Below are positions 1 to 14,426 of a DNA stretch of 14,426 nucleotides, piece by piece. The notes beneath the pieces are model-generated. The model was not told the DNA's origin. It saw only the letters and a list, made by a program, of their open reading frames with translations, and did no database searches. A program made the translations under genes and the position numbers. This stretch comes from a virus. Its lineage: Duplodnaviria > Heunggongvirae > Uroviricota > Caudoviricetes. The stretch lies in IMG/VR virus record IMGVR_UViG_2850796239_000001. One strand, written 5' to 3'. Every line of letters starts with the position of its first letter. Position 1 is the stretch's first letter.

Positions 1-240
1 TTATCCGTCCTGATTTTGCATCCACTCCACCACAAAATCAGCCAGCCCCCCAACATCATTAATATCCAGTAACGCGACATCAAGATTAAGTGACACATCA
101 CTGGCTACAGCAATAACATGTCTGTCTATCACTAATTCTTCCGGTCGATGTCCGGCTCCATCGCGAAACAGCACAATCTTTGCGATCTCTTCATGCTTAA
201 ACCCTTCGACCAGAATCAAATCCAGCTTTGAGGTATCCAT
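1..240 (-). CDS. mobB: MobB (molybdopterin-guanine dinucleotide biosynthesis adapter protein), C-terminal fragment; gene interrupted by prophage insertion
   Basis: Minus-strand ORF ending at TAA (rc of 1..3). Translation MDTSKLDLILVEGFKHEEIAKIVLFRDGAGHRPEELVIDRHVIAVASDV... matches the C-terminal part of enterobacterial MobB as I recall it. In-frame similarity continues upstream of the Met to ~264 (..DLHFLASR), then ends at stop codons (265..267, 271..273 on the minus frame). Confidence 0.8.
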   Translation of the reverse strand: MDTSKLDLILVEGFKHEEIAKIVLFRDGAGHRPEELVIDRHVIAVASDVSLNLDVALLDINDVGGLADFVVEWMQNQDG

Positions 241-282
241 TCGACTTGCGAGAAAATGTAGATCCTATGACTAGGTAATTTA

Positions 283-414
283 TTCAAGATAACCGGGAAG
301 AGATTAAAAAAGACGGGATTTGGTTGGATTCAATAACTTAGCTACTAGTTGTATTCAAGATAAAATGGGCAAGGGCCGTTTAGTTTGTTCAGAACAATAA
401 AACATTCAAGATAA
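283..414 (+). repeat. Three direct copies of TTCAAGATAA near the prophage left end; candidate transposase end-binding sites (attL L1-L3 analogues)
   Basis: Exact 10-mer at 283..292, 354..363 and 405..414 in AT-rich non-coding DNA between the prophage end and the repressor gene. A related GATTCAATAA lies at 327..336, and AACCGGGAAG at 291..300 resembles AACCGGGAGG in the Mu left end. Confidence 0.4.
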
Positions 415-508
415 AGCGTCTTGTTTATTTTGACCTTTTAAAGGCTTTTAAAACTAGCTTATCAGAAGTTGTAGAAATGGACCAAGTAAGTTAAGCACAG
501 CTAGCTGA

Positions 509-1015
509 TTATATGCTAACTGCCTTGTTGGTTAGTTGGATGAGATCGGCCTCAGCTTCATTTCCCGCCAAAATCTCTCTAACCTTTTGTTCTGACAGGT
601 TATTTAGGCTTAAAGCAGCTAATCTTCGAATACCCGTTAAACTAATCAACTCTTGGTTTTCTTGGCTGCAAAATTCGAGCAACTTTTCAACACCTTTTCG
701 TTTGAGCGTATGGATCACGATCTCTTTTTCTTGTTCGCTTAGAGAATCCATTATTTTCATTAACTCATTAGCTTTTGAGGCCTTGTTTGATGGTTTGGTT
801 GCTGTTTGCAACTGACCGCTAACAATTGCAGCGACGTGTTCAGGCAAGTCTTGCAATCGGTACGCAAAGGCCCTTCCTCTAACTCCGGGTGTTGTAACTG
901 AACGTTTTTCCCACCCCTCATTTCTTGCTCGCTTATGGAGTCCTGCAAGGGATGTGGGTAAACCGCCAACACCGAGGAGTTCACTAGCAGGCACCCATTC
1001 TTGATCTTGGATCAT
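509..1015 (-). CDS. Mu c-like repressor
   Basis: 168-aa ORF divergent from ner/A. Start ATG (rc of 1013..1015) is preceded by GGGAGG (rc of ~1022..1027). N-terminal motif WVPASELLGVGGLPTSLAGLHKRARNEGWEKR is shared with the transposase N-terminus (WVPMTELASFCGLPSSLAGLHKKAKKESWQTR), as in Mu where c and MuA share a DNA-binding domain. Confidence 0.75.
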   Translation of the reverse strand: MIQDQEWVPASELLGVGGLPTSLAGLHKRARNEGWEKRSVTTPGVRGRAFAYRLQDLPEHVAAIVSGQLQTATKPSNKASKANELMKIMDSLSEQEKEIVIHTLKRKGVEKLLEFCSQENQELISLTGIRRLAALSLNNLSEQKVREILAGNEAEADLIQLTNKAVSI

Positions 1016-1146
1016 ATCAACCTCCCAATGAAATTAACCAGTTGATATTTACTTAGTTAATATCTAATATTCCAACCACACACAGTTGAGTAACTCTCGT
1101 GAGTTACACGCATGAGTCATAGAGTTTGCCATAGAAAGCGCGTGGG
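1016..1146. promoter_or_regulatory. Divergent early promoter/operator region between repressor and ner
   Basis: Intergenic position matches the Mu operator region. Nested inverted repeats TTAAC(1034..1038)/GTTAA(1056..1060) and GATAT(1044..1048)/ATATC(1060..1064); dyad GTAACTC(1090..1096)-tcgt-GAGTTAC(1101..1107). No promoter assigned. Confidence 0.4.
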
Positions 1147-1401
1147 GTGTTAATCGTGATTTTAGGTGAGGATTGGGATTCCGCTGATATCAAGGCTGAG
1201 CTTGAGAAGCGTGGTACTAATTTGTCTCGCTTATCGAGAGAAAATAATTTAAGGCCAAGAACGTTAGGTAATACTTTGCGAGTCCCCTATTTAAAGGGAG
1301 AAGGGATTATTGCGCAAGCTATTGGAGTTCAACCAGAGGTTATTTGGCCAACCAGATATGAACGTCGCTCACGGAGGAAAAATGTGGGTTCCAATGACTG
1401 A
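1147..1401 (+). CDS. ner: Ner-like DNA-binding protein (Ner/Nlp family)
   Basis: Translation ..EDWDSADIKAELEKRGTNLSRLSRENNLRPRTLGNTLRVPYLKGEGIIAQAIGVQPEVIWPTRY.. aligns with Mu Ner (..RDWHRADVIAGLKKRKLSLSALSRQ..PKGEQIIANALETKPEVIWPSRY). Start is uncertain (GTG 1147 or GTG 1156). Stop TGA at 1399..1401 overlaps the transposase start. Confidence 0.85.
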   Translation: MLIVILGEDWDSADIKAELEKRGTNLSRLSRENNLRPRTLGNTLRVPYLKGEGIIAQAIGVQPEVIWPTRYERRSRRKNVGSND

Positions 1402-2056
1402 ATTAGCTTCATTTTGTGGATTACCTAGTTCACTTGCGGGTTTGCATAAGAAAGCTAAAAAAGAGTCATGGCAGACACGTCTTAAAGCTGGGGTTAAGGG
1501 ACGTGTTGTTGAGTGCGAAATAAACTCTTTACCTATTGTTATTCAAAAGGCACTGCGTGAACGCTATGTGGCACAGTTGGTGGCTACAGAGAACAATGTT
1601 TCTGAAGTGAAAGCTGTTACCAGAAAAACACGCAATCCTGATGCTGTCCAGGCAATCGAAGCATATCGCGGTTCGCCACAACTGATGGAAGAACGCCTGA
1701 ATGCGCTGACCGAAAACCAGCGTCGGGTATCTGAAGCAAGGGCTGCGCTGGTGGTGGAAGTGCTGAAGCTGGAAAGCGCCGGTAACCTCGGGCGACTGAA
1801 AGCCATTAACTTTCTTGTTGAAAAAGCCCGTAAAGGTGAGCTGCCGGAGCGCCTGCAACAGGCCGCAGTTAACGCCAATGCAAAACGTGGCGCTAATCGT
1901 ACTATCAGCCGCGATCCACTTTACCAGTGGGTTCTGAAATACAACCAGTCGCAGAACGCCGCCGAACGGCTGCTGTTACTGGCACCGGGAAAACGCGACG
2001 AAATAAAACCGGAAGAAATCAGCTGGCTGCCTGAATTTCTGGCGCAGTATCGCTAG
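1382..2056 (+). CDS. MuA-like transposase, N-terminal DNA-binding portion, ending at an in-frame TAG
   Basis: ATG at 1382 is preceded by GGAGG (1374..1378). The ORF-track start at 1310 overlaps ner and lacks an RBS. Ends at TAG 2054..2056, in the same frame as the next ORF. Confidence 0.8.
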   Translation: MWVPMTELASFCGLPSSLAGLHKKAKKESWQTRLKAGVKGRVVECEINSLPIVIQKALRERYVAQLVATENNVSEVKAVTRKTRNPDAVQAIEAYRGSPQLMEERLNALTENQRRVSEARAALVVEVLKLESAGNLGRLKAINFLVEKARKGELPERLQQAAVNANAKRGANRTISRDPLYQWVLKYNQSQNAAERLLLLAPGKRDEIKPEEISWLPEFLAQYR

Positions 2057-3541: not shown

Positions 3542-4108
3542 ATGACTGATATTGATGATGTTTTCAACACTATTAACGCTTTGATTAACGAGGGCGACAA
3601 GTCTCAGGAAGATATTGCTGATGAAGCCGGAATGTCTCCGGCAACACTCTCGGCTCTGCGTAAAGGAGAGTACAACGGTAATGTCGAAGGTATGCATGAC
3701 AAATTACAGAAATGGTATCAGGTCTGGCAGAAGGGACAGAACTTGTCAGGTACCCCTGGTGTTGTGAAGACCCAGACATTTTGTGATTTGCATGAGCTGT
3801 TTAAAACAGTGCGCTCACTCGGGATTATCAGTGTCGTTGTTGGCGTACCGGGTGTCGGAAAAACCTTTGCTGCCCGGGAATATTGTCGCAGGACAGCTAA
3901 TGCCTGGATGGTGACTCTTGCTCCGGCACATTCGAGCGTAACGGAATGCCTCCTTGAAATAGCATATGCGCTGGAAATTAATAATCCGGGAAGAAATAAG
4001 GGGAATGTAACCCGCGCCATTCGCAGAAAACTGGGTGGTGGTAAAGAAACCAGTGGCCGTGTTAACCCCCTTCTGATTATTGATGAAGCTGAGGTGTACT
4101 GGCAATAG
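3542..4108 (+). CDS. MuB-like transposition ATPase, truncated after the Walker B motif by IS insertion
   Basis: ATG 3542 with GAGGA (3531..3535). Walker A GVPGVGKT and Walker B LLIIDEA. Aligns with Mu B (..GNPGVGKTEAAREY.. LVIIDEAD..). The last codons (EVYWQ, stop) are encoded by the IS terminus starting at 4090. The ORF is 188 aa against ~312 aa for Mu B. Confidence 0.85.
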   Translation: MTDIDDVFNTINALINEGDKSQEDIADEAGMSPATLSALRKGEYNGNVEGMHDKLQKWYQVWQKGQNLSGTPGVVKTQTFCDLHELFKTVRSLGIISVVVGVPGVGKTFAAREYCRRTANAWMVTLAPAHSSVTECLLEIAYALEINNPGRNKGNVTRAIRRKLGGGKETSGRVNPLLIIDEAEVYWQ

Positions 4109-4132
4109 CGGACACTACCATTTGTTCTTTTT

Positions 4133-4819
4133 TTAAGCAGCCATCTGATGATATTTTTCCCTGAAGGCTGCCGGGGAGATATTCCCCAGACGAGAGTGAC
4201 GACGCTGACGATTGTAGAAAATCTCAATGTATTCCCGTATTACTGAGATGGCTTCATCCCGGTTATTAAAACGATAGTGGCTCAGGCTCTCATTTTTCAG
4301 CGTTCCCCAGAAGCTTTCCATCGGAGCGTTGTCGTAACAGTTACCTTTACGCGACATTGATGTTTTCAGACCAAACTGCTCCTGTATGACCCGGTAATCG
4401 TATGCGCAGTACTGTGAACCTCGATCAGAGTGGTGGATTAGCCCGGCAGGTGGGCGCTGGCTCCTGAGCGCCATAAACAGGGCTTTACCTGTCAGCTCTT
4501 TTGTCATGCGCTCTCCCATGGCGTAGCCGACAATTTCGCACGTATAAACATCTTTGATGCCAGCGAGGTACAACCATCCCTCCTGTGTGGCAACATACGT
4601 CAGGTCCGCCACCCAGACCTGATTTGGTGCTGTAGGAGCGAACGTCTGGTTCAGCAGATTTGGCGCAACTGGCAGATTGTGGTTCGGGTTCGTAGTCGCT
4701 CTGAACTTGCGTTTCTGCTTACAGCGTAGCCTTAGCTCCTTACGAAGACGTGCCAGTCGGTCACGACCAACGATGATGCCATTCTCTGCCAGCTCCGTCT
4801 GGAGCCGCCCGGGTTCCAT
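4133..4819 (-). CDS. IS3-family transposase OrfB, C-terminal catalytic part (frame-disrupted copy)
   Basis: 228-aa ORF containing the IS3-group DDE core (..WVADLTYV.., HHSDRGSQY, SMSRKGNCYDNAPMESFWGTLKNE). It is out of frame with the orfB N-terminal segment at 4761..4952. Confidence 0.85.
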   Translation of the reverse strand: MEPGRLQTELAENGIIVGRDRLARLRKELRLRCKQKRKFRATTNPNHNLPVAPNLLNQTFAPTAPNQVWVADLTYVATQEGWLYLAGIKDVYTCEIVGYAMGERMTKELTGKALFMALRSQRPPAGLIHHSDRGSQYCAYDYRVIQEQFGLKTSMSRKGNCYDNAPMESFWGTLKNESLSHYRFNNRDEAISVIREYIEIFYNRQRRHSRLGNISPAAFREKYHQMAA

Positions 4820-4952
4820 ATGTTTCGCGAGTGCGGATATGTGCCACCTTAATCTCCAGTTTTAGCCGCTCATCACTTTGTTTTCTGTCTGAGGGTTCAT
4901 GCTGTACCCAGTTGTAATAACCGCTCCTGGATACACCAAATACCTGACACAT
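4761..4952 (-). CDS. IS3-family OrfB N-terminal segment, separated from the rest of orfB by a frame change
   Basis: MCQVFGVSRSGYYNWVQHEPSDRKQSDERLKLEIKVAHIRTRETYGT then out-of-frame tail. It lies in the -1 frame relative to orfA, as expected for programmed frameshifting, but +1 relative to 4133..4819. Confidence 0.5.
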   Translation of the reverse strand: MCQVFGVSRSGYYNWVQHEPSDRKQSDERLKLEIKVAHIRTRETYGTRAAPDGAGREWHHRWS

Positions 4953-4987
4953 CGCTTCAATGGGAAATTGTTGTCGCCATTGTTCGA

Positions 4988-5250
4988 TTAACGCGTATTT
5001 TTCAGCGACTCCTGTGCAAAATACGCTGTTGCTTTTTTTAATATATCTCGCTCAAGGCGAGCTTCATTTAACGCCTTACGCAGTTGCAGAATTTCAGATT
5101 CCAGTTCAGCCACCGTGCGGGAACCAGGAGTACCGAGCCCTTTTCTGGCGGCGGTAACCCATTGTCCTAAAGTGCCTTCAGGAAGGGATAATCGGGAAGC
5201 GCCTTCACTGATCGAAAGTTGATTTTCAAGAACCGTTCTGACAGCTTCGG
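4988..5250 (-). pseudogene. IS3-family orfA, 3' portion; the 5' portion (codons 1-15) lies at 8006..8052 on the other side of the IS66-family insertion
   Basis: Manual minus-strand translation ..VRTVLENQLSISEGASRLSLPEGTLGQWVTAARKG..LERDILKKATAYFAQESLKNTR* continues the MSRKTQRYSKEFKAEA fragment. A-run slippery site (A7 at rc of ~5033..5039) lies near the orfA end. Confidence 0.75.
5243..5250. repeat. 8-bp target-site duplication (GCTTCGGC), left copy, flanking the IS66-family element
   Basis: Identical 8-mer at 5243..5250 and 8006..8013 immediately outside the element's terminal inverted repeats. Confidence 0.9.
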
Positions 5251-5283
5251 CGTAAGCGCCCCGAGAAGTACGTAGCGTAAGGA

Positions 5284-6885
5284 TTATTTTACAGACGAGA
5301 AGTTCCAGGGCAGCAGTTCATGCACTTGGTTCGACGGCCAGTCATTGAGCTTCTCGATCACTTCGCGCAACCAGTCCTCCGGCTCCACTTCGTTCTGTTT
5401 GCAGGTGACCAGCAGACTGTAGATGATCGCCGCACTTTCTCCTCCCTTGTCTGAGCCGAAAAAGAGATAATTTTTTCTTCCAACCGCCACCGATCGTAAC
5501 GCGTTTTCACCGATGTTGTTGTCTATTTCCACCCAGCCGTCACGACAGAACTCGTTCAGCGCATTCCAGTGATTCAGGATATAGTCGAACGCCTTCGCCA
5601 TCTCCGCATGTTTCGACAGCGTTTTCCTCTGCAATTGTATCCAGTCGTACAACGACTGCATCAACTGGACGCTTCTGGCTTTTCTGACTGCAAGCCGTTC
5701 CTCTGCCGGACTGCCACGTATCTCCGCTTCTATGTCGTATAACTCTGCTATCCGTCTGAGCGCTTCCTGAGTCATTTCTGTCGGACGGCGCACATCCTCG
5801 TCATGGATTTTTCGGCGGGCGTGGGCCAGGCACCCGGCTTCCTTCACCCGGCCCGTTTCGTACAGTACGTTATAACCTGCATAGGCATCAGCCTGCAGTA
5901 CGCCCTGATACTTTGCCAGGTGGAGCTGCGGATGTTCTCCTTTGCGATCTGCCGAATACGCGAACCAGACGGCTGCCGGCAGGGATGAACCCGCATTACG
6001 ATCATCCCTGACGTATACCCACAGACGACCCGTTTTCGTCTTTCCGTTCCCCGGGGCCAGTACTTTCACCGGAGTGTCATCTGCGTGCACCTTTCCTGCC
6101 TCCAGAACATAGTCATTCAGCGCTATATACAGAGGACGGAGTTTGTCTGCCATTTCTGATACCCAGCGCACCATGGTATTACGGCTCAGCTCCACGCCCT
6201 GTCGCGCGTATATTTCTGACTGGCGATATAAAGGGATATGTTCCATATATTTGCTGACCAGGATCCGTGCAAGTAACCCTGCACTGGCATAACCGCGTTC
6301 GATCGGTTTAGGGGGAAGTGGTGCCTGAACGATGACATCACACCGGCTACAGGCCAGTTTGGGACGTATGGTTTCGATAACTTTAAAGGCGGTATTAATG
6401 ATATCCAGTTGCTCTGAGATTGTTTCCCCCATTTCTTTCAGAACACCTCCACAGGCCGGGCAACTGGTTTCAGCAGGCAGAAGGCGATGTGTCTCCCGGG
6501 GAAGTTCTGCCGGCAGCGGTTTTCGTGAAGATTTTCGTCCCGGGGATTCAGGCTTACTGGCGATCGGGTTTTCTGACGGGGGACTGGTGTCAGGTGAATC
6601 TGTGACTGACGATGCATCTTCCAGAAGATTTCTGGCTGTGTTCAGCCGGTTTTCCAGTTCCGACAGTCGTTTTTCTGCCTGTCGGATCTGATTTTCAAGC
6701 TTATGACGCTTTTTCTCTGAACTCTGGCCGAACAACATACGACGCAACCTGTCGAGTTGCGCTTTCAGCCGTTCAATTTTCTGCTCATAGCCCGCGACCT
6801 GACAGGCATACTGTCGAAGCCGACTCTGTTGCTTACGCAACATGGCTTTAAGCAGCTCAATATCATCGGGGAGTTCATTGTTCAT
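5284..6885 (-). CDS. tnpC: IS66-family transposase TnpC
   Basis: 533-aa ORF with N-terminal coiled-coil/leucine-zipper-like region, a CxxC...CxxC zinc-finger region (SCPACGG ... CSRCD) and a large catalytic domain typical of IS66 Orf3. Confidence 0.9.
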
Positions 6886-6904
6886 TCCCTTGTTTTATCA
6901 CGGG

Positions 6905-7252
6905 TTATATCCGGATGCCAGGCCGTTCTGTCCGTTTGGGATGTTGCCACGCGATCCCCTCCAGTAGCATGGATAACTGAGCTGGCGTCAGGTGCACTTT
7001 CCCTTCCCGGGTCACCGGCCAGACGAAGCGGCCCCGTTCCAGGCGTTTGGCGAACAGGCATAACCCGTCACGATCGGCCCACAGTATTTTCACCATTTTG
7101 CCACTGCGGCCCCGGAAGACGAAGATATGCCCGGAGAACGGGTCATCTTTCAGCGTGTTCTGCACCTTCGAAGCCAGGCCATTGAAGCCACAACGCATAT
7201 CTGTGATGCCAGCGATGATCCAGATTTTGGTACCGGTCGGCAGCGTTATCAT
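6905..7252 (-). CDS. tnpB: IS66-family TnpB (Orf2)
   Basis: 115-aa ORF (MITLPTGTKIWIIAGITDMRCGFNGLA...) typical of IS66 Orf2; its start overlaps the tnpA stop as ATGA at 7249..7252. Confidence 0.9.
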   Translation of the reverse strand: MITLPTGTKIWIIAGITDMRCGFNGLASKVQNTLKDDPFSGHIFVFRGRSGKMVKILWADRDGLCLFAKRLERGRFVWPVTREGKVHLTPAQLSMLLEGIAWQHPKRTERPGIRI

Positions 7253-7923
7253 CGGATACCCCCTTTCATTTCGCGGATTAGCGCCCGTAACAGTTCCGGA
7301 GTGAGAGGGTCAAACAGTTTTACCACACCTGATTTAAGATGCAGCTCGCACCGTGGGACGTTTCCGGGAGCCCCCTCAGGGCGCTCATCATGCTTGTTAC
7401 GCCAGAAGGGATTTGTAACTGGTCTGGTCGGCTCCGGCGTATCAGTCAGTGCCACCGGGACAGGCATGCATTCCTGTATGTCATCATCGCTCAGTAAGCC
7501 GTCCTCGTACTGGCTTTTCCATTTAAACAGCAGGTTATTATTGATATCGTGTTCTCTGGCGATCCGGGCAACAACAGCCCCAGGCTGTAACGCCTGCTTA
7601 GCCAGACGGACCTTAAATTCACGGCTATAGCTGGTTCGCCGTTCTTTTCGCCATGAGCCTTCTCTGATTTGAGGCTCTGTTAATTCCTTCTTTCTGTTGG
7701 CATAAAGGATGGCGTCAAGTTGAGCGAATGAAACTGAATCGGGCAATGGCCATGCGATACCGGATGCAAGAAATCGCTGAAAAAGCGTATGTATTGTGGA
7801 ATGACTGAGACCCAGACGCTGAGCGATGGCCCGGATGGTCAGTTTATCTTCAAATCTTAAACGCAGGGCATCAGGCAAATAAGAACGGAAGCAGGGAATA
7901 TCTTTTGTTGTCTGGGAATTCAT
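7249..7923 (-). CDS. tnpA: IS66-family TnpA (Orf1) with N-terminal helix-turn-helix extension
   Basis: 224-aa ORF with HTH-like segment LTIRAIAQRLGLSHSTIHTLFQRF and the IS66 Orf1-like motif RRTSYSREFKVRLAKQALQPGAVVARIAREHDINNNLLFKWKSQY. Confidence 0.85.
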   Translation of the reverse strand: MNSQTTKDIPCFRSYLPDALRLRFEDKLTIRAIAQRLGLSHSTIHTLFQRFLASGIAWPLPDSVSFAQLDAILYANRKKELTEPQIREGSWRKERRTSYSREFKVRLAKQALQPGAVVARIAREHDINNNLLFKWKSQYEDGLLSDDDIQECMPVPVALTDTPEPTRPVTNPFWRNKHDERPEGAPGNVPRCELHLKSGVVKLFDPLTPELLRALIREMKGGIR

Positions 7924-8005
7924 CGTTCGTGTCCATCAATATAGATGGGCGCGATTGTTGCCAGACAGGACAATTTTCACAAGACGTCGCTGATGGGGCG
8001 CTTAC

Positions 8006-8013
8006 GCTTCGGC
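8006..8013. repeat. 8-bp target-site duplication (GCTTCGGC), right copy
   Basis: Identical to 5243..5250; it lies within IS3-family orfA codons K-A-E-A (rc GCCGAAGC). Confidence 0.9.
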
Positions 8014-8212
8014 TTTGAACTCTTTAGAGTAACGTTGGGTTTTTCTGCTCATTATTAGCTCCTTCTGATGCCATTCTATTTCAGGAAGGAGTGTCCGTTA
8101 AACTCAGGCTACCTCATCATTCCTGACCGTATTGCCTTTCTGGTGGTGTTAACCCGCCCGGACAAAACCACACTCAGAATCGAAATCACCCGTCGATGGG
8201 AGGCCACCATTA

Positions 8213-9289
8213 ATGCCGTATGAAATCCCCACGCTGGGCAAACTGATTGCCGACGGCGAAAAAGATATTGCGTATGAACTCGGCCTGCAAAAGCTGCCGC
8301 CTGTCAGTGTTGAGCAGGCGCTGAACGTGTCATTCAGCAGTCAGGTCCGGGATTTATACGACCATCAGAGCTGGATTAAGGACCAGATAATCCCGTCCAC
8401 CACGTCTGATGATGAAACCATTATCAAAACAGCAAAGTATGAAGGGGTTATCCGCAAGCAGGCCACCTTTGCCAGCGGGCGGGTGACCTTCACCAGTCAG
8501 TCCCCCCTTCCGGCAGAAACCCGGATGCAGTCCGACACGAACCAGGTGTATCAGGTACTCACGTCCGGCGAGGTGCAGGACGGCGAGGTCACCGTCATCG
8601 TGCAGGCTGAAGAAGCCGGTGTGGCGGGCAATCTTGCTGCCGGTGCCGTACTCACCCTGCTGTCCCCGCTGCCCGGAACGGCCAGCACAGGCGCGGTGGC
8701 TGAAGGTGGCATCACCGGTGGCGCAGACACTGAATCCATCGCAGCGCTGCTGGACCGTCTGCTGTATGTGCGCCGCAATCCACCGACAGGCGGCGCGTTG
8801 CATGACTACGTGATATGGGCGCGTGAAGTGCCGGGCGTCAGCCGCGCGTGGGCGTGGGATGCATGGCACGGCCCCGGCACGGTCGGGCTGGCATGGCTTT
8901 ATGATGACCGGGAAAACATCGTGCCAACCCGCGAAGACCTGAAGACAATGGAGCAGTATCTGTTCTGCCACAAACACCCGGCCACGGGCGTGATGGTGGG
9001 TAAACCGGGCGGCATTGAGGTCTGGCCGGTACAGGTCAGGCTGAAGAAAGTCAGCATATCCATCCGTCTGACACCGGACAGCCTGGCGAACAGGAGCGCC
9101 GTCCGGGCAAACCTGACCGCGTTACAGAAGACACTGGCACCCGGTCAGACGCTGCCGGTGTCCTCGCTGCGCACGGCCATCGGTATGACGTCCGGCATCA
9201 CGGATTACTTCCTTAACATCGGGGAGGACACCACCAGTGATGTGGATGAGCTTATCACCATCGGGGAGGTGACATGGCTCACAGCGTGA
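8213..9289 (+). CDS. Baseplate J-like protein (Mu gp47 family)
   Basis: 358-aa ORF; ATG 8213 preceded by GGGAGG (8198..8203) with a TAATG overlap to an upstream frame. Size, composition and position before gp48/S/U fit the Baseplate_J family; the call is from memory of the family, not an alignment. Confidence 0.8.
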   Translation: MPYEIPTLGKLIADGEKDIAYELGLQKLPPVSVEQALNVSFSSQVRDLYDHQSWIKDQIIPSTTSDDETIIKTAKYEGVIRKQATFASGRVTFTSQSPLPAETRMQSDTNQVYQVLTSGEVQDGEVTVIVQAEEAGVAGNLAAGAVLTLLSPLPGTASTGAVAEGGITGGADTESIAALLDRLLYVRRNPPTGGALHDYVIWAREVPGVSRAWAWDAWHGPGTVGLAWLYDDRENIVPTREDLKTMEQYLFCHKHPATGVMVGKPGGIEVWPVQVRLKKVSISIRLTPDSLANRSAVRANLTALQKTLAPGQTLPVSSLRTAIGMTSGITDYFLNIGEDTTSDVDELITIGEVTWLTA

Positions 9290-9858
9290 CGGAATGGCTG
9301 GCCGCACTGCAACAGGTCATGCCACGGGGTAAGGCATGGCCGCGTGATAACGACGCGGATTTAAACCGCTTTTTAAGGGCGCTTGCAGAACGTTTAAACC
9401 GCACTGAATACGACGCCTCGCGTCTGCATGTGGAGATGCGACCGGAAACCACGCTCCGGCTGCTGCCGGAGTGGGAGCAGTATCTGGCGCTGCCGGAATG
9501 CGGAATTGCCCCCACCACCAGGGAAGCCCGCCGCCGTGCCGTGGTGGAGAAATACCGTCGCAGGGGCGGGCTGGCAACCTGGCAGACTGAAGCCGCAGCA
9601 GCGGCGCTGGGCTTCACCATTAAGGTGACAGCCGTTCTGCCGCACCACTGTCTGCGCGACTGCATGTATCCGCTGCATCCGGCGCGGTATCGCTGGATGC
9701 TGAAAGTGAACGTCCCGGGTAAAGATGCCGGGCGGTTTACCTGTATTGATGGCGTCATGACACCATTAATCAGCGAACGCACCCGTGAGCTGGAATGCCT
9801 GCTGAAGCATTACCGGCTGGCGGGCACGGAATATGAATATTATTACACCGGAGAATAA
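9274..9858 (+). CDS. Mu gp48-like tail/baseplate protein (DUF2313 family)
   Basis: 194-aa ORF overlapping the J-like gene by 16 nt; its position between baseplate J and the tail fibre matches Mu gene 48. Confidence 0.7.
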   Translation: MAHSVTEWLAALQQVMPRGKAWPRDNDADLNRFLRALAERLNRTEYDASRLHVEMRPETTLRLLPEWEQYLALPECGIAPTTREARRRAVVEKYRRRGGLATWQTEAAAAALGFTIKVTAVLPHHCLRDCMYPLHPARYRWMLKVNVPGKDAGRFTCIDGVMTPLISERTRELECLLKHYRLAGTEYEYYYTGE

Positions 9859-9861
9859 TTT

Positions 9862-10959
9862 ATGTTTTATGTGGATAACCCGACGGGTGTGCCGGTAATG
9901 CCACCTGTCGCGGCTGAATTAAGCAAAACAACGCTTTATTTCACCGAAGGCGGGAACGGTATTCCGCCCACGTATCCGGGGCCGGACTGGTTTAATATTA
10001 TTCAGTCTGAATTACTGGAAATACTCCGGCAGGCAAATATCAAACCGGATAAAAACACAACCGACCAGATTATGACAGCGCTGAAAAAACTGTTTATTAC
10101 GAACAGTGGTTCAGCCGGAGCTATTGCCGGATTAACCGGTCAGAATAATATGTTCCCGTATTTTACCGGCAAAGACACAATGGCATTAACGCCGCTCAGT
10201 GCTTTTGTTCGCGGTATTCTCGGAAAAAACAGCGCCAGCGATTTTGTTAAAGACATCGGAGCAGGCCGTGCTTTCAGTGGTTCTGTAAGTATTGGTGGCG
10301 ACAGTGGAGCCTGGACGACGGCGCAGTTTATTGACTGGCTGGATTCACAGGGAGCATTTAACCATTCTTACTGGATGTGCAAAGGCTCCTGGGCTTATGC
10401 GGGCAATAAAATCATCACCGATACCGGCTGCGGCAATATTCAGTTGGCCGGTGCAGTTGTTGAGGTAATGGGCGTCAAATCAGCCATGACCATCAGGGTG
10501 ACCACACCAACAACGGCCACGAACGGCACGACAAGCTCACAGTTCACCTACATCAACCACGGAGACGCCTACTCTCCCGGATGGCGACGTGAGTACAATA
10601 CCAGAAACAAACCAACAGCATCGGACGTGGGGGCACTCCCCGCAAACGGTAATGCGGTCTCAGCAACCAGACTCCAGACTGCCCGCAGGATTAACAATGT
10701 GCTGTTTGATGGCCCCCGCGATATCACCATCAACACCACCGAGCCCGGCGCTGTGCGTAATTTCCAGTACACCAATGAGGTGTTTTACAACCCGGGCAGT
10801 ACCACAATTACCTGGAGGTTTCGCGCACCTTCTGGCTGCCAGTTGTCAGGCATTTATGTCCAGGATACGGGAAAAAATACAGCAGACAATATCGGTGGTG
10901 TGTATTACAAACAGGCTCAGATTTATATCAATGGCGCATGGCGCTCTGTATCCGGTTAA
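9862..10959 (+). CDS. Tail fibre protein (Mu S-like)
   Basis: ATG 9862 with GGAG upstream. N-terminus MFYVDNPTGVPVMPP... resembles the Mu/P2-type tail-fibre N-terminal domain as I recall it; followed directly by a Tfa/U-type assembly gene. Confidence 0.75.
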   Translation: MFYVDNPTGVPVMPPVAAELSKTTLYFTEGGNGIPPTYPGPDWFNIIQSELLEILRQANIKPDKNTTDQIMTALKKLFITNSGSAGAIAGLTGQNNMFPYFTGKDTMALTPLSAFVRGILGKNSASDFVKDIGAGRAFSGSVSIGGDSGAWTTAQFIDWLDSQGAFNHSYWMCKGSWAYAGNKIITDTGCGNIQLAGAVVEVMGVKSAMTIRVTTPTTATNGTTSSQFTYINHGDAYSPGWRREYNTRNKPTASDVGALPANGNAVSATRLQTARRINNVLFDGPRDITINTTEPGAVRNFQYTNEVFYNPGSTTITWRFRAPSGCQLSGIYVQDTGKNTADNIGGVYYKQAQIYINGAWRSVSG

Positions 10960-10973
10960 TTAAGGAGAAAATA

Positions 10974-11504
10974 ATGGAACTCAGAAATGTTACGCGTTAT
11001 TACCCTGAAGGTATGCCTTATGGTGAAGGCATTCAGTATTTCCGCAGTGAAGACGGGCAGGACTTTTATGAATCCCTGGATAAATTCACGAAGAAATACA
11101 AGCTGTGCACGCATCCTGAAACCGGCGTGATTTATTCGATGGCGGAAGACGTATCCCGTCTTTATCCCGTTGGTTTTACCATTGTGGAAGTGGATGAACT
11201 GCCGGAAGGCTTTGGCATTGAAGTCTGCTGGTATTATAAAAACGGCGAAGTTCTTCCTGTTCCTGTTGATTATTTGCGGCTGGCAGAAAAACAGCGCCAG
11301 AGCCTGCTGAATGAAGCAAGGGACATCACCTCCGACTGGAAAACCGAGCTGGAGCTGGGCACCATCAGCGACGATGACAAAGCCCGTCTTACACAGTGGA
11401 TGGCGTATATCAGGGAGGTAAAGACACTGGATTTAAGCACCGTTACTGACGAAGCCTCCTTTAATTCCATCAACTGGCCGGAGCGTCCCGATGCCGCAGC
11501 TTAA
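10974..11504 (+). CDS. Tail fibre assembly protein (Mu U / Tfa family)
   Basis: ATG 10974 with TAAGGAG (10960..10966); the ORF-track start at 10938 is upstream of the RBS. C-terminal motif ..GTISDDDKARLTQWMAYIREVKTLDLS.. matches the conserved Tfa/U motif (Mu U ..GIISDENKQKLTEWMLYAQKV..). Confidence 0.85.
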   Translation: MELRNVTRYYPEGMPYGEGIQYFRSEDGQDFYESLDKFTKKYKLCTHPETGVIYSMAEDVSRLYPVGFTIVEVDELPEGFGIEVCWYYKNGEVLPVPVDYLRLAEKQRQSLLNEARDITSDWKTELELGTISDDDKARLTQWMAYIREVKTLDLSTVTDEASFNSINWPERPDAAA

Positions 11505-12543
11505 AGGTGTGATAAAAACGCCCACGGGAGAACCGCTGGGCGGCGCAACCATTACACTGACCTCCCTGCACAATCGTGCAGGGATCCTGAAAAGTGTTTT
11601 CAGCCACGTCACCACACAGAGTGGAGAGTACGACTTCCCTGTTCTGCCGGGCGTGTACAGCGTTCGTCTGACACAGAGTGCACAGTGCCTTTCAGAAATC
11701 GGTGTCATCCGCGTTTATGAAGATTCAACGGACGGTTCGCTGAATGATTTTCTGGGCGCAACTGATATTGACCTGCGTCCGGAATCCCTGAAGAAATTCG
11801 AAGAGCTGGCGCAACAGGCGCAGCAGAGCGCCGGGGCCGCAGCCGGAAACGCACAGCAGACGGCGCAGGATGTGGCGGCAGCCGCAACGGCCCGTGATGA
11901 TGCACAACGTTTTGCGGAGAAAGCCCGACAGGATGCAACCGTCACAGCTGAGGACAGAAAGGCCACTGCGGAAGATGTGACAAGCACAGGAGCAAATGCA
12001 GCCGCAGCCGGACAGAGCGCACAGGATGCCGCAGGTTATGCCCGCGCAGCAGAACAGGCCAAAAATGACATTGATGCTGCGCTGACCGGCACTCTGAAAA
12101 TGGCTAACCATCTGTCAGAAATCGCAGCAGCAGGCGAAAAGGCACAACAGAAGTCCCGGGATAATCTGAGGCTGAAAAGTGCGGCCACGATGGAAGCACA
12201 GAGCGACATTTACGACCGGACAAAAGGCCGTCTGGCGATACCCGGCGCATTCGGCTTTGGGTGTGCTTTTCTGCCTGAAGATGTTATCCGTTTTGACACT
12301 AAGAGTGATTTCCTGGCCTGGGTAAGGAATGCGCTGCCAGGTGAATATTCCGTTGCTGGCCCCTACGGCATCATCATACCCGACACACGGTTTGAAGGGG
12401 GGCTCAGCATCCGGTGGACTGATGCACGCCCTGAGACAAGGGAACCGCGGTACAGAGCCAAATCCCTTACTTTTTACGGCATTAACGGCCCCATTTATCA
12501 CACCCGCTACTGCTACTGGCCCATATCCAGACTGACTGGGTGA
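11491..12543 (+). CDS. Side tail fibre protein (lambda Stf-like N-terminal domain with Ala/Gln-rich shaft)
   Basis: N-terminus ..KGVIKTPTGEPLGGATITLTS...GVYSVRLTQ...IRVYEDSTDGSLNDFLGA.. parallels the lambda Stf N-terminus (..SGVLKDGTGKPVQNCTIQLKA...GQYSVILQ...ITVYEDSQPGTLNDFLCA..). Followed by an AQQ/AAA-rich repeat region and the ..LSEIAAAGEKAQQKSRDNLRL.. motif common in fibres. Confidence 0.75.
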   Translation: MPQLKGVIKTPTGEPLGGATITLTSLHNRAGILKSVFSHVTTQSGEYDFPVLPGVYSVRLTQSAQCLSEIGVIRVYEDSTDGSLNDFLGATDIDLRPESLKKFEELAQQAQQSAGAAAGNAQQTAQDVAAAATARDDAQRFAEKARQDATVTAEDRKATAEDVTSTGANAAAAGQSAQDAAGYARAAEQAKNDIDAALTGTLKMANHLSEIAAAGEKAQQKSRDNLRLKSAATMEAQSDIYDRTKGRLAIPGAFGFGCAFLPEDVIRFDTKSDFLAWVRNALPGEYSVAGPYGIIIPDTRFEGGLSIRWTDARPETREPRYRAKSLTFYGINGPIYHTRYCYWPISRLTG

Positions 12544-12893
12544 AAATAAATATAGCCACAGAAGATATTATTTACAGAATCGTGGCGAGCTCTGTCCGCA
12601 ACAGATGGGGAGACCCTGACATTGGCGGGCTGATTATTGCTGCGTACCAGGGAAAAGCTGACGGTGATAAAGACATCAGACTTGTCAGGGGGCGGTCATA
12701 CAGAGGCTCACGACTGGGACCGGTGGGGATTTCAGCGCCCTGTACTCCCACCGGAACGCATATAGTATACCCACAATATTTCATTACGGGATGTTCAGAG
12801 CATTCATTACCGGGGTCATATTGCGCCCTGTCCGGGGTGCCGGATACATATGTCTCTGGCGCAATGCTTGGGCTTTTTATTCGCACATCGTGA
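12540..12893 (+). CDS. Hypothetical ORF of uncertain reality (possible fibre distal fragment or accessory gene)
   Basis: GTG-initiated 117-codon ORF overlapping the Stf stop (GTGA) and the next gene's start region. No recognisable family; the C-terminal half has atypical composition. Confidence 0.25.
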   Translation: MKINIATEDIIYRIVASSVRNRWGDPDIGGLIIAAYQGKADGDKDIRLVRGRSYRGSRLGPVGISAPCTPTGTHIVYPQYFITGCSEHSLPGSYCALSGVPDTYVSGAMLGLFIRTS

Positions 12894-12903
12894 GGAATGC
12901 ACT

Positions 12904-13470
12904 GTGGAAATTAAAAAAATCATTAATCCCCGTTATACCGAAAGTGGCGCAGTAGACTGTGACGTTTTTTTTGACGACAGGGACCAGGCAGTCCCCTACA
13001 CAGCCACCGCTGATGATGTCGCTCCGACGGGTCAGCAAATCTGGCAGGAACTGCAAAGCGGCAAATGGGGTGAGATAGCCCCATTCACTGTGACACCAGA
13101 AATGCTGGAAGCGGCCAGAGAGGCCAGACGTCAGGAAATTGAAGCATGGCGCACAGAACAGGAGGCGAAGCCGTTCACGTTTGAATGGAACGGTCGTATC
13201 TGGAATGCTGGCCCCGACTCACTGGGCCGCCTGTCCCCGGTAGTCATGCTGGCAAAATCTGTCACAGCACAAACACATATGGCGTGGAGCGATGCGGATA
13301 ATCAGCAGGTGCAGCTGACGACGCAGGAACTTGAGGAACTGGCCACAGCGATGATGCAGGCCATTGTTGAGCGCAACGATGAGATTTATCGCTGTCAGCG
13401 GGAGATGAAAGAACAACTTTCTCTGTTGCCCACACTGGACGAGGTGAGAGCGTTCAGACCAGGCGATTAA
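12904..13470 (+). CDS. Putative tail fibre assembly/chaperone protein (second, non-U type)
   Basis: ORF 12850..13470 in the track; preferred start GTG 12904 with GAGGAA (12892..12897). Position immediately after a fibre gene; the C-terminal region resembles prophage tail-fibre chaperone-like proteins, but this is a weak call from memory. Confidence 0.5.
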   Translation: MEIKKIINPRYTESGAVDCDVFFDDRDQAVPYTATADDVAPTGQQIWQELQSGKWGEIAPFTVTPEMLEAAREARRQEIEAWRTEQEAKPFTFEWNGRIWNAGPDSLGRLSPVVMLAKSVTAQTHMAWSDADNQQVQLTTQELEELATAMMQAIVERNDEIYRCQREMKEQLSLLPTLDEVRAFRPGD

Positions 13471-13492
13471 ATAATCAGTTTGTATAGTTTAT

Positions 13493-13520
13493 GACGATCG
13501 ATAGCATCATATCGATCGTC
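13493..13520. promoter_or_regulatory. Perfect palindrome with two GATC (Dam) sites upstream of com-mom; candidate methylation-sensitive repressor-binding region
   Basis: GACGATCGATA-gcatca-TATCGATCGTC (11-nt arms); GATC at 13496..13499 and 13514..13517. In Mu, a GATC cluster upstream of Pmom mediates Dam/OxyR control. Confidence 0.5.
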
Positions 13521-13545
13521 GGTTTGCATCAAGTGTGATTAAATA

Positions 13546-13589
13546 CCCCCAGCCCTCCGGGCAGCGATATCCTGTTATTACACTGGGGG
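13546..13589. promoter_or_regulatory. GC-rich dyad CCCCCAG-N30-CTGGGGG just upstream of com; candidate late-activator (Mu C-type) site or RNA structure
   Basis: CCCCCAG at 13546..13552 and its reverse complement CTGGGGG at 13583..13589; the right arm overlaps the com Shine-Dalgarno (GGGGGA, 5 nt before ATG 13595). Confidence 0.35.
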
Positions 13590-13594
13590 AAGTT

Positions 13595-13780
13595 ATGGAT
13601 TCTGTTCGTTGTAAAAATTGCAATAAATTGCTGTTTAAAGGAGGTTGTAAGCATATAGAAATCAAATGTCCTCGCTGTAAACGTTACATTGTCATATCGA
13701 GTGCCCGGGAGCATCCCACGGAGCTGTGTTGTGGGAAAAGAGAAGAAATCACACATTCTGACAAAACCCTGCGTTATTGA
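13595..13780 (+). CDS. com: Com, zinc-finger translational activator of mom
   Basis: ATG 13595 within ORF 13535..13780. Translation [61 protein letters not shown] (61 aa) is near-collinear with Mu Com ([34 protein letters not shown]...HSDETVRY), with the four-Cys zinc finger conserved. Confidence 0.9.
13714..13736 (+). promoter_or_regulatory. Predicted mRNA stem-loop sequestering the mom SD and GTG start (translation-inhibitory structure, target of Com)
   Basis: TCCCAC(13714..13719)-GGAGCTGTGTT-GTGGGA(13731..13736); the loop contains GGAG and the 3' arm contains GTG 13731. This mirrors the Com-dependent mechanism known for Mu mom. Confidence 0.45.
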
Positions 13781-14426
13781 GTATGAAGGCCGGATTGTCG
13801 GCTATGGTTCAAGGGAGCTGCGCGTTGAAACCATATCCTGCTGGCTGGCCCGCACAATCATTCAGACAAAGCATTATTCCCGCCGTTTTGTGAATAACTC
13901 CTGGTTGCATCTGGGCGTATTCAGTGGACGTGATCTGGTTGGTGTTCTTCAGTGGGGATATGCCCTTAACCCCAACTCAGGGCGTCGCGTTGTGCTTGAA
14001 ACGGATAACCGGGGCTATATGGAACTGAACCGCATGTGGCTACACGACGACATGCCCCGCAACTCTGAATCACGGGCCATCAGCTACGCGCTGAAAACCA
14101 TCAGGTTACTGTATCCGTCAGTGGAGTGGGTTCAGTCCTTTGCAGACGAACGTTGCGGGCGTGCAGGTGTTGTGTATCAGGCGTCAAATTTTGATTTTAT
14201 TGGCAGCCATGAAAGCACATTCTACGAACTGGACGGTGAGTGGTATCACGAGATAACGATGAATGCGATTAATCGTGGAGGGAAGCGCGGCGAATATTTA
14301 CGAGCGAATAAGGAGCGGGCCGTGGCGCACAAATTTAATCAATATCGTTACATCAGGTTCCTGAACAAGCGCGCAAAAAAGCGACTAAACACTAAGCTAT
14401 TCAGGATTCAGCCTTACCCGAAGTGA
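13731..14426 (+). CDS. mom: Mom DNA modification protein (adenine modification, anti-restriction)
   Basis: Long ORF (track 13689..14426) overlapping the 3' end of com as in Mu, ending at TGA 14424..14426. Preferred start GTG 13731 (GGAG 8 nt upstream, gives 231 aa). The sequence ..[51 protein letters not shown].. is Mom-like from memory and position. Confidence 0.85.

What the first reader, a model, noticed from the sequence alone, without database searches (positions are those of the whole stretch)
13471..14426. com-mom DNA-modification module retained intact with its regulatory elements
Com and Mom are full-length while transposition, head and lysis functions are broken or deleted. Three regulatory elements are visible upstream and inside: a perfect palindrome with two GATC sites (13493..13520), a GC-rich dyad (13546..13589) overlapping the com RBS, and a hairpin that occludes the mom SD and GTG (13714..13736). 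In Mu, mom needs the late activator C, which is not in this window and would have sat in the deleted region. Either the module is silent here, or it is driven by another activator or prophage.
Basis: partly seen in the sequence, partly recalled or inferred. Interest (0 to 1): 0.6.

Follow-up and report, generated by a model that had tools for sequence, protein, structure and literature searches.

The report
Intact com-mom genes in decayed prophage
This is a complete copy of the well-known phage Mu "com-mom" DNA-modification operon, with its usual control sequences, at the right end of a broken Mu-like prophage in Shigella boydii; it is intact because it is young, not because it shows signs of being kept, so it is an ordinary finding.

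Summary
Window 13471..14426 holds a complete Mu-type com-mom operon. Com is 61 aa, with its zinc-ribbon cysteines present. Mom is 231 aa, 95% identical to Mu Mom and to the solved structure 8bv8, with both catalytic residues kept. The window matches the Shigella boydii chromosome CP026875.1. The prophage sits in mobB and is degraded: the transposase has an amber codon, MuB is cut by IS600, about 24 kb is deleted, and a tail-fibre gene is frameshifted.

- The 11-bp inverted repeat with two GATC sites corresponds to Mu's Dam/OxyR region.
- The hairpin over the mom SD and GTG, with a Com-target hairpin beside it, has the same shape as in Mu.
- The GC-rich dyad is at chance level and is not conserved.

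No Mor/C-family activator is in the window. Intact relatives carry a single one, of the Mor type rather than the C type, inside the deleted segment.

The 956-bp module is 100% identical to copies at another insertion site, so its intactness is not evidence of selection. The most likely state is a silent operon that could be activated in trans. This is a new member of a known kind and of low interest.

The parts
13478..13522 (+). Upstream control region homologous to the Dam/OxyR region of the Mu mom promoter (ATAG at 13485-88 plus the GATC-bearing inverted repeat)
   Evidence: It aligns with Mu ATATAGAAAACGACGATCGAATCAATTAAATCGATCGG. Conserved in 13 relatives. OxyR binding itself was not tested.
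13493..13503 (.). Left arm of the inverted repeat, GACGATCGATA, with GATC at 13496-13499
   Evidence: I1. 1 of 11 columns is variable among relatives.
13510..13520 (.). Right arm of the inverted repeat, TATCGATCGTC, with GATC at 13514-13517
   Evidence: 0 of 11 columns are variable. The 18-bp spacing between the two GATC sites is the same in Mu, L025 and L026.
13534..13561 (+). C-box-like promoter block (TGATTAAATACCCCCAGCCCTCCGGGC); ATAC starts at 13543
   Evidence: ATA(A/C) starts exactly 26 nt after the second GATC in the window, Mu, L025 and L026. It resembles the Mu late-promoter boxes CATAACCCCAG and CATAACCCCGG. 5 of 28 columns are variable, which is not below the neutral rate.
13574..13584 (+). 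Conserved GTTATTACAC block; candidate -10 / transcription start region (not mapped)
   Evidence: 2 of 11 columns are variable, next to a hypervariable stretch at 13562-13573 with 9 of 12 variable. No sigma-70 consensus promoter was found.
13585..13590 (+). com Shine-Dalgarno run (GGGGGA)
   Evidence: It lies 5 nt upstream of the ATG at 13595. The G run is present in nearly all relatives.
13595..13780 (+). com: zinc-ribbon translational activator, 61 aa
   Evidence: 69% identical to Mu Com. Pfam PF10122 at 28.2 bits against a cut-off of 22.9. Cys6, 9, 25 and 28 are present. It carries a Cys at residue 18 where relatives and Mu have Phe.
13701..13714 (+). Com-target hairpin (GUGC-CCGGGA-GCAU)
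   Evidence: Same 4-bp stem and 6-nt loop as in Mu. The stem is kept in 6 lineages while the loop varies; the only stem change is A-U to G.U.
13715..13735 (+). Hairpin over the mom translation start (CCCACGG-AGCUGUG-UUGUGGG), holding SD GGAG at 13720-23 and the GTG at 13731-33
   Evidence: (I13) and 57: two-hairpin fold of -11.3 kcal/mol here against -10.7 in Mu. All 7 pairs are invariant in 6 lineages. The RBS and start positions match the Mu annotation.
13731..14426 (+). mom: tRNA(Gly)-dependent adenine N6 aminoacyltransferase, 231 aa
   Evidence: 95% identical to Mu Mom. E = 7e-152 to PDB 8bv8 over the full length. R101 and S114 are present; these are R111 and S124 in the numbering of PMC13219725.
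3542..4092 (+). Truncated MuB gene: left edge of the internal deletion
4081..8116 (-). IS600 with an IS66-family element (ISSfl3-like) nested at about 5252-8005. It replaces about 24.3 kb of prophage, including the Mor-type activator gene.

Best explanation
WHAT IT IS
The region is a complete, orthodox Mu-type com-mom operon at the right end of a Mu-like prophage. The prophage is inserted in mobB of Shigella boydii and was gutted by an IS600-associated internal deletion.

HOW THE MODULE WORKS (by homology with Mu)
1. A weak promoter with no sigma-70 consensus lies between 13534 and 13594.
2. Upstream of it is a pair of Dam sites, 18 bp apart, inside an inverted repeat. In Mu, OxyR binds there when the sites are not fully methylated and blocks transcription.
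3. Next comes an activator box, then a short leader, then com.
4. Com binds the hairpin at 13701-13714. This opens the adjacent hairpin at 13715-13735, which hides the mom SD and GTG start, so that Mom is translated.
5. Mom transfers glycine from Gly-tRNA(Gly) to N6 of adenine in double-stranded DNA. This yields N6-carbamoylmethyl-adenine, which blocks many restriction enzymes.

STATE IN THIS REMNANT
- The only Mor/C-family activator gene of the lineage has been deleted, and no consensus promoter reads into the operon. It is most likely transcriptionally silent unless an activator is supplied in trans.
- It is intact because the copy is young and lies beyond the deletion, not because it has been selected.

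SHOWN VERSUS INFERRED
- Shown: gene integrity, homology of each element, loss of the activator, and identity to other copies.
- Inferred: OxyR/Dam control, activator dependence, and silence.
For: GENES
- Intact, with catalytic residues kept (PMC13219725).
- The exact protein is recorded as 'Protein Mom [Shigella boydii ATCC 9905]'.
- Window 3731..14426 is identical to CP026875.1.

REGULATORY HOMOLOGY
- The GATC-N14-GATC pair and an ATA(A/C) box starting 26 nt after the second GATC are shared by Mu, the window lineage, a Scandinavium locus and an Enterobacteriaceae locus.
- The inverted-repeat arms are conserved while the spacer varies.
- The two-hairpin RNA fold is the same as in Mu and 100% paired in 6 lineages.
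- The mom RBS and GTG positions match the Mu annotation.

KNOWN BIOLOGY OF MU
- Dam/OxyR control, C dependence, the Com requirement and Mom toxicity are described in PMC3378877, PMC4461284 and PMC2909390.

ACTIVATOR AND PROMOTERS
- No Mor/C homologue in the window.
- Relatives have one Mor-type gene inside the deleted segment.
- No plus-strand consensus promoter lies between 7900 and 13800.

YOUTH OF THE COPY
- The module is 100% identical in 7 contigs at two insertion sites.
- Neighbouring tail genes are intact.
Against: - The transcription start is not mapped. No convincing -10 hexamer lies at the Mu-equivalent distance from the box, and the stretch 13562-13573 is hypervariable.
- The lineage's own activator is Mor-type, and no Mor box lies upstream of com. 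Activator dependence of this promoter is therefore inferred from Mu rather than shown.
- By my own count, the OxyR consensus match is only 12 of 20 defined positions. The experimentally bound Mu site scores the same 12 of 20 and shares 11 of those 12 matched positions.
- This allele has Com F18C and Mom R8H relative to Mu and the relatives. Their effect on function is unknown.
- The rest of the source genome could not be searched for another activator.
Confidence: 0.72

Rival explanations
1. Domestication. The host keeps com-mom under selection, for example to modify its own or incoming DNA, while the rest of the prophage decays.
For: Both genes and every recognisable control element are intact while the transposase, MuB and a tail-fibre gene are damaged.
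Against: - The module has no substitutions relative to copies at another insertion site.
- Five adjacent tail genes are equally intact.
- About 85% of the time an 0.83-kb operon would stay intact by chance at the observed lesion density (my calculation).
- Mom expression is cytotoxic in E. coli (PMC3378877).
- The activator is gone.
Confidence: 0.06
2. The operon is expressed here without its own activator. This could happen by read-through from upstream DNA (tail genes or the IS600 end), or because this promoter variant is constitutive once Dam-methylated.
For: - No plus-strand terminator lies between the DUF4376 gene and com.
- The 124-bp spacer follows a continuous run of plus-strand genes starting at 8213.
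- No Mor box lies at this promoter in a Mor-only lineage.
Against: - No plus-strand consensus promoter lies between 7900 and 13800.
- The IS transposase genes point the other way.
- The promoter has no recognisable sigma-70 hexamers, like the activator-dependent Mu Pmom (PMC3378877).
- Unregulated Mom is toxic (PMC3378877).
Confidence: 0.12
3. The 13493-13520 inverted repeat is not a Dam/OxyR operator. It would instead be an RNA hairpin ending the tail operon, or the site of another protein.
For: An 11-bp stem sits 23 nt after a stop codon. The match to the OxyR consensus is weak (12 of 20 positions, my count).
Against: - It is followed by GGTTTGCAT, with no T run, and the terminator scan does not call it.
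- The same GATC-N14-GATC pair at the same distance from the activator box occurs in Mu, where it is the Dam/OxyR region. It also occurs in two further lineages whose arms are only partly palindromic (PMC3378877 notes two PvuI sites 18 bp apart in Pmom).
Confidence: 0.1

Closest known systems
com-mom operon of Escherichia phage Mu (also D108, SfMu)
   Same: - Same gene order and the same 50-nt com/mom overlap.
- Mom 95% and Com 69% identical.
- Same Com-target hairpin and translation-start hairpin.
- Same GATC-N14-GATC pair, with an ATA(A/C) box 26 nt after it.
- Same position at the right end of the phage.
   Different: - DNA similarity to Mu starts only at window 13605, so the promoter region has diverged.
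- Two GATC sites rather than three.
- Arms form a perfect 11-bp inverted repeat.
- No T6 run in the promoter spacer.
- The distance from the first GATC to the com ATG is 10 nt shorter (99 against 109 nt).
- No gin or G segment upstream; a DUF4376 tail gene sits there instead.
- The lineage has no C gene.
Dam/OxyR-gated promoters (Mu mom, E. coli agn43, Salmonella/P22 gtr)
   Same: Paired GATC sites sit inside a dyad upstream of a weak promoter. OxyR binding is blocked by methylation in all three (PMC2909390).
   Different: GATC spacing is 18 bp here against 13 bp in gtr (PMC2909390). OxyR binding and phase variation are untested here, and the consensus match is weak.
Mor-dependent middle promoter Pm of Mu
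   Same: Intact relatives carry exact GCCGGTAAATCCGGC+T7 boxes, like Mu Pm, upstream of the lysis and protease genes. Their activator is 61-63% identical to Mor.
   Different: No such box lies upstream of com. The window has lost both the activator and those promoters.
Cryptic Mu-like prophage remnants of Shigella
   Same: An IS-ridden partial Mu-like prophage in a Shigella chromosome. Remnants of this kind, including one in S. boydii, are mentioned in PMC4406740.
   Different: This one belongs to a mosaic lineage distinct from SfMu/Mu: GH108 lysin, a single Mor-type activator and no G segment.

Membership tests
Mom family (PF25680), tRNA(Gly)-dependent adenine aminoacyltransferase | Full-length match to the family profile above the curated cut-off | tested here: met
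   254.2 bits against a cut-off of 27.1; profile positions 1-202 of 202.
Mom family (PF25680), tRNA(Gly)-dependent adenine aminoacyltransferase | Catalytic R111 and S124 (241-aa numbering; R101 and S114 here), shown essential in PMC13219725 | tested here: met
   The ungapped alignment to Mu Mom and 8bv8 shows R in ELNRMW. It shows S where the S124A crystal construct has A.
Mom family (PF25680), tRNA(Gly)-dependent adenine aminoacyltransferase | HTH-like insertion (about residues 175-209 in 241-aa numbering), required for activity | tested here: met
   No gaps across the whole 231 aa. The region is conserved apart from a few conservative changes.
Mom family (PF25680), tRNA(Gly)-dependent adenine aminoacyltransferase | Forms N6-carbamoylmethyl-adenine in DNA | not testable with these tools
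   Needs LC-MS or a restriction-protection assay.
Com zinc-ribbon translational activator (PF10122) | Profile match and four zinc-binding cysteines | tested here: met
   28.2 bits against a cut-off of 22.9. Cys6, 9, 25 and 28 align with Mu Cys6, 9, 26 and 29. An extra Cys18 replaces a conserved Phe.
Com zinc-ribbon translational activator (PF10122) | The gene overlaps the mom start, with a target hairpin directly 5' of a hairpin that sequesters the mom SD and start codon | tested here: met
   The stems show no covariation because they are invariant; the support is conservation, not compensatory change.
Com zinc-ribbon translational activator (PF10122) | Binds the RNA and activates mom translation | not testable with these tools
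   Needs RNA-binding and translational-fusion assays.
Mu-type mom promoter (Pmom) architecture | GATC cluster upstream of the activator site | tested here: met
   Two GATC sites 18 bp apart, as for GATC1 and GATC2 of Mu. The third Mu GATC is absent.
Mu-type mom promoter (Pmom) architecture | OxyR binding site over the GATC sites | tested here: inconclusive
   12 of 20 consensus positions (my count against ATAGxTxxxAxCTAT-N7-repeat; the half-site is quoted in PMC2909390). The Mu site scores the same 12 of 20, and 11 of the 12 matched positions are shared. No binding data.
Mu-type mom promoter (Pmom) architecture | Activator box at a fixed distance, with weak non-consensus -35 and -10 hexamers | tested here: met
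   ATA(A/C) at +26 from the second GATC in four lineages. No consensus promoter found.
Mu-type mom promoter (Pmom) architecture | Cognate C activator encoded by the same phage | tested here: not met
   Intact relatives encode only a Mor-type protein, 32% identical to C. The window encodes none.
Functional (inducible) Mu-like prophage | Intact transposase, MuB, activator, lysis, head and tail genes | tested here: not met
   Amber codon in A, truncated B, 24.3 kb deleted, and a frameshifted tail-fibre gene.

The most novel reading that the evidence does not exclude
In this Mu-like lineage the mom promoter keeps a C-type activator box at exactly the Mu geometry. Yet the phage encodes only a Mor-type activator, whose perfect boxes sit at other late promoters. 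The com-mom operon, including orphan copies such as this one, might therefore be switched on by something other than the phage's own activator. Candidates are the C protein of a different co-infecting Mu-type phage, or an unidentified factor. That would make it a cross-phage, trans-activated anti-restriction cassette.
Probability: 0.1. Interest if true: 0.5.

Novelty: new member of a known kind. Interest (0 to 1): 0.22.

Why it matters
- The finding adds a natural sequence variant of the intensively studied Mu mom control region. Comparing four lineages shows which parts are held fixed: the 18-bp GATC spacing, the distance from the GATC pair to the activator box, and the stems of both RNA hairpins. 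It also shows which parts are free to vary.
- It records that a widespread E. coli/Shigella Mu-like lineage runs on a single Mor-type activator. This leaves open how mom is activated in that lineage.
- For the host, a silent but complete gene for a toxic DNA-hypermodifying enzyme is a latent function that a superinfecting relative could awaken.
- None of this changes current understanding of com-mom.

Tried and rejected
1. A second 'AATACCCCCRGCCC' box inside gene N of the intact relatives looked like a tail-operon counterpart of the com box. It lies in codons for a conserved NTPGPG motif and not at the position of Mu PP, so I treat it as coincidence.
2. I tested the GC-rich dyad as an RNA structure over the com RBS. 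The fold z-score is -0.49 and the arms do not co-vary. Rejected.
3. The sigma-70 scan gave no promoter for com and no plus-strand promoter upstream. I could not place a -10 hexamer or a transcription start.
4. Rfam and NCBIfam gave no matches.
5. The genome-contig scan with Mom returned only 3 loci. That was enough to compare geometry but too few for covariation statistics.
6. I looked for another Mor/C activator in the source genome through a protein search and cluster listings. A Mor-type protein of this lineage exists in some S. boydii and S. sonnei genomes, but I could not tie any to CP026875.1. Inconclusive.
7. The original OxyR/mom papers (PMC401183, PMC147061) are not held.
8. The reverse complement of the right end did not locate the left end. 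I found the left end at about window 266 by comparison with a relative instead.

Full report
WHERE THE WINDOW COMES FROM

Window 3731..14426 is identical, base for base, to a 5.16-Mb chromosome, CP026875.1. The exact Mom protein is recorded as 'Protein Mom [Shigella boydii ATCC 9905]', with a longest carrying contig of 5,164,076 bp. The source is therefore a Shigella boydii chromosome.

The window holds a Mu-like prophage inserted in mobB. Window 1..240 (minus strand) encodes the C-terminal part of MobB, and the N-terminal part follows the prophage right end in L005. The phage left end is at about 266.

STATE OF THE PROPHAGE

From left to right:
- a c-type repressor gene, 509..1015 (minus strand);
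- a ner-like gene, 1147..1401;
- the transposase, split by a single in-frame CAG->TAG change at 2054;
- MuB, cut at about 4092.

Next comes IS600 (4081..5251 and 8006..8116), with an IS66-family element nested inside it. Phage DNA resumes at 8114, just upstream of the baseplate J gene.

Compared with an intact relative, E. coli FDAARGOS_943, about 24.3 kb is missing. The missing segment held the semi-early genes, the activator, the lysis genes, the head genes and most tail genes.

In the surviving right arm:
- baseplate J, gp48, one tail-fibre gene, its assembly protein and the DUF4376 gene are open;
- a second tail-fibre gene has a 4-bp deletion at 12536.

THE TWO GENES

com is 13595..13780 (61 aa).
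- It is 69% identical to Mu Com and matches Pfam Zn_ribbon_Com.
- Cys6, 9, 25 and 28 are present.

mom starts at the GTG at 13731 and ends at 14426, the last base of the window (231 aa).
- It is 95% identical to Mu Mom with no gaps.
- It scores 254 bits to Pfam PF25680 and E = 7e-152 to the solved Mom structure 8bv8.

PMC13219725 shows that Mom transfers glycine from Gly-tRNA(Gly) to N6 of adenine in double-stranded DNA and that R111 and S124 are essential. That paper numbers from a start 10 codons upstream and reports that removing those 10 residues is tolerated. The two residues correspond to R101 and S114 here, and both are present.

This allele has two substitutions relative to Mu and the relatives, Com F18C and Mom R8H. 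Both occur in every contig that carries this exact Mom protein, so they belong to the phage allele and are not decay within this remnant.

REGULATORY ELEMENT 1: THE INVERTED REPEAT

13493..13520 consists of perfect 11-bp arms around a 6-bp non-palindromic spacer. GATC lies at 13496 and 13514.

blastn similarity to Mu begins only at 13605, yet the architecture upstream is clearly homologous. Mu, the window lineage, a Scandinavium locus (L025) and an Enterobacteriaceae locus (L026) share two features:
- a pair of GATC sites exactly 18 bp apart;
- an ATA(A/C) box starting exactly 26 nt after the second GATC.

[quoted passage not shown] PMC3378877 mentions two PvuI sites 18 bp apart in Pmom.

Conservation within the window lineage:

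| Region | Variable columns among 13 sequences |
|---|---|
| Inverted-repeat arms | 1 of 22 |
| Spacer | 3 of 6 |
| Fourfold-degenerate sites | 24.5% |

My binomial estimate for the arms is p of about 0.02. The lineage is found in 49 of 5426 E. coli genomes.

By my own count the match to the OxyR consensus is weak, at 12 of 20 positions. The bound Mu site also scores 12 of 20, and 11 of the 12 matched positions are shared. OxyR binding here is an inference.

REGULATORY ELEMENT 2: THE GC-RICH DYAD

The arms exist, but the pairing does not stand up.
- As RNA it is no more stable than shuffled sequence (z = -0.49).
- A 7-bp repeat at that spacing is expected by chance about 0.3 times in the spacer (my estimate).
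- Most relatives read CAGGGGG on the right with no compensating change on the left.

The left arm is the C run of the activator-box-like block. That block, ATACCCCCAG, resembles Mu PI CATAACCCCAG and Mu PP CATAACCCCGG. The right arm is the com Shine-Dalgarno run.

REGULATORY ELEMENT 3: THE RNA SWITCH

Folding 13697..13742 gives two adjacent hairpins:
- a 4-bp stem with a 6-nt loop at 13701-13714;
- a 7-bp stem at 13715-13735, with the SD GGAG at 13720-23 and the GTG at 13731-33 in the 3' arm.

The energy is -11.3 kcal/mol. Mu gives the same shape at -10.7 kcal/mol. The SD and start positions agree with the Mu annotation.

Across six lineages every pair is kept and the loops vary. The only stem change, A-U to G.U, preserves pairing. 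There is no compensatory covariation, because the stems are invariant and also lie in overlapping coding sequence.

That Com binds the first hairpin and opens the second comes from established Mu work (Wulczyn and Kahmann; Hattman), which I cite from my own knowledge. PMC3378877 states that Com is essential for mom translation.

THE ACTIVATOR

No Mor/C-family sequence is in the window.

The intact relatives FDAARGOS_943 and ETEC1732 have exactly one such gene. It lies just before the lysis genes, within the segment deleted here.
- It is 61-63% identical to Mu Mor and 32% identical to Mu C.
- Its C-terminal segment (TVYKAI[K/R]RMRRL) is almost identical to that of Mor. In Mor/C-family proteins this is the DNA-binding helix-turn-helix (my knowledge).

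Exact Mor-type boxes (GCCGGTAAATCCGGC followed by T7) lie upstream of the lysin and the protease genes. None lies upstream of com.

However, it is not C, and what activates mom in this lineage is open.

No consensus sigma-70 promoter is found upstream of com, or on the plus strand from 7900 onward. This fits an activator-dependent promoter and argues against simple read-through.

WHY THE MODULE IS INTACT

- The 956 bp of 13471..14426 are identical in seven contigs. These cover two insertion sites: mobB (L005, L008) and a site next to type VI secretion genes (L006, L007). No substitution has occurred since the common phage ancestor.
- The module lies beyond the IS-associated deletion, and its tail-gene neighbours are mostly intact.
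- With two point lesions in about 10.1 kb of surviving phage DNA, an 832-bp operon escapes about 85% of the time (my calculation).

Intactness is therefore expected and says nothing about selection.

VERDICT

This is a genuine, complete, probably functional but probably silent Mu-type com-mom operon in a cryptic S. boydii prophage. Two of the three proposed control elements are real and homologous to known Mu elements; one is not supported.

It is a new member of a well-known kind. The modest point of novelty is that this Mor-only lineage keeps a C-type box geometry at the mom promoter.

I could not test whether another activator exists elsewhere in the genome.

Noticed in passing
window 1..265 and L005 10697..11089: The prophage is inserted inside mobB. 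The MobB C-terminal part is encoded at 1..240 (minus strand). An 89-aa N-terminal part follows the right end. Both phage ends are still in place, so the damage is an internal deletion.
   Followed up: partly
window 2054..2056: The transposase is inactivated by a single in-frame CAG->TAG change, not a frameshift. The adjacent base 2053 also differs from the relative.
   Followed up: yes
window 4081..8116: IS600 is itself interrupted by an IS66-family (ISSfl3-like) element at about 5252..8005. The two IS600 pieces overlap by 8 bp in the reference copy, consistent with a target duplication. This composite replaces about 24.3 kb of phage DNA.
   Followed up: partly
window 12536: A 4-bp deletion splits the 468-aa 'prophage tail fibre N-terminal domain' gene into 350-aa and 117-aa ORFs.
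   Followed up: yes
window 10247..11427: The distal part of the first tail-fibre gene and its assembly-protein gene are unrelated at DNA level to the otherwise 98-99% identical relatives. This looks like a swapped host-range cassette.
   Followed up: partly
window 266..1545: The immunity and left-end region (repressor, ner, transposase N-terminus) does not match the relative whose remaining DNA is 99.5% identical. This is mosaicism at the immunity module. A third relative (L024) has a true Mu-type left end and a MerR-type repressor.
   Followed up: no
L001 466..475 (+) and 570..579 (-): In intact relatives, AAATACCCC(T/C), the core of the com-upstream box, occurs twice in inverted orientation in the spacer before the protease gene. 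One copy lies 26 nt upstream of the Mor box. Unexplained.
   Followed up: no
window 10126..10140 (minus strand): ACCGGTTAATCCGGC, two mismatches from the Mor box, lies inside a tail-fibre gene and is conserved in relatives. No T run follows it. A nearby minus-strand promoter-like match is at chance level. Probably coincidence.
   Followed up: partly
L006 and L007, downstream of mom: The identical com-mom module and right end abut type VI secretion genes in other S. boydii-type assemblies. This phage allele therefore transposed into at least two chromosomal sites.
   Followed up: partly
window 13562..13573 and 13531..13533: Two short stretches of the com upstream spacer vary more among relatives (9 of 12 and 3 of 3 columns) than fourfold-degenerate sites (24.5%). 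They sit next to conserved blocks. In the window allele the first reads TATCCT, the -10 hexamer of Mu Pm and PP.
   Followed up: no
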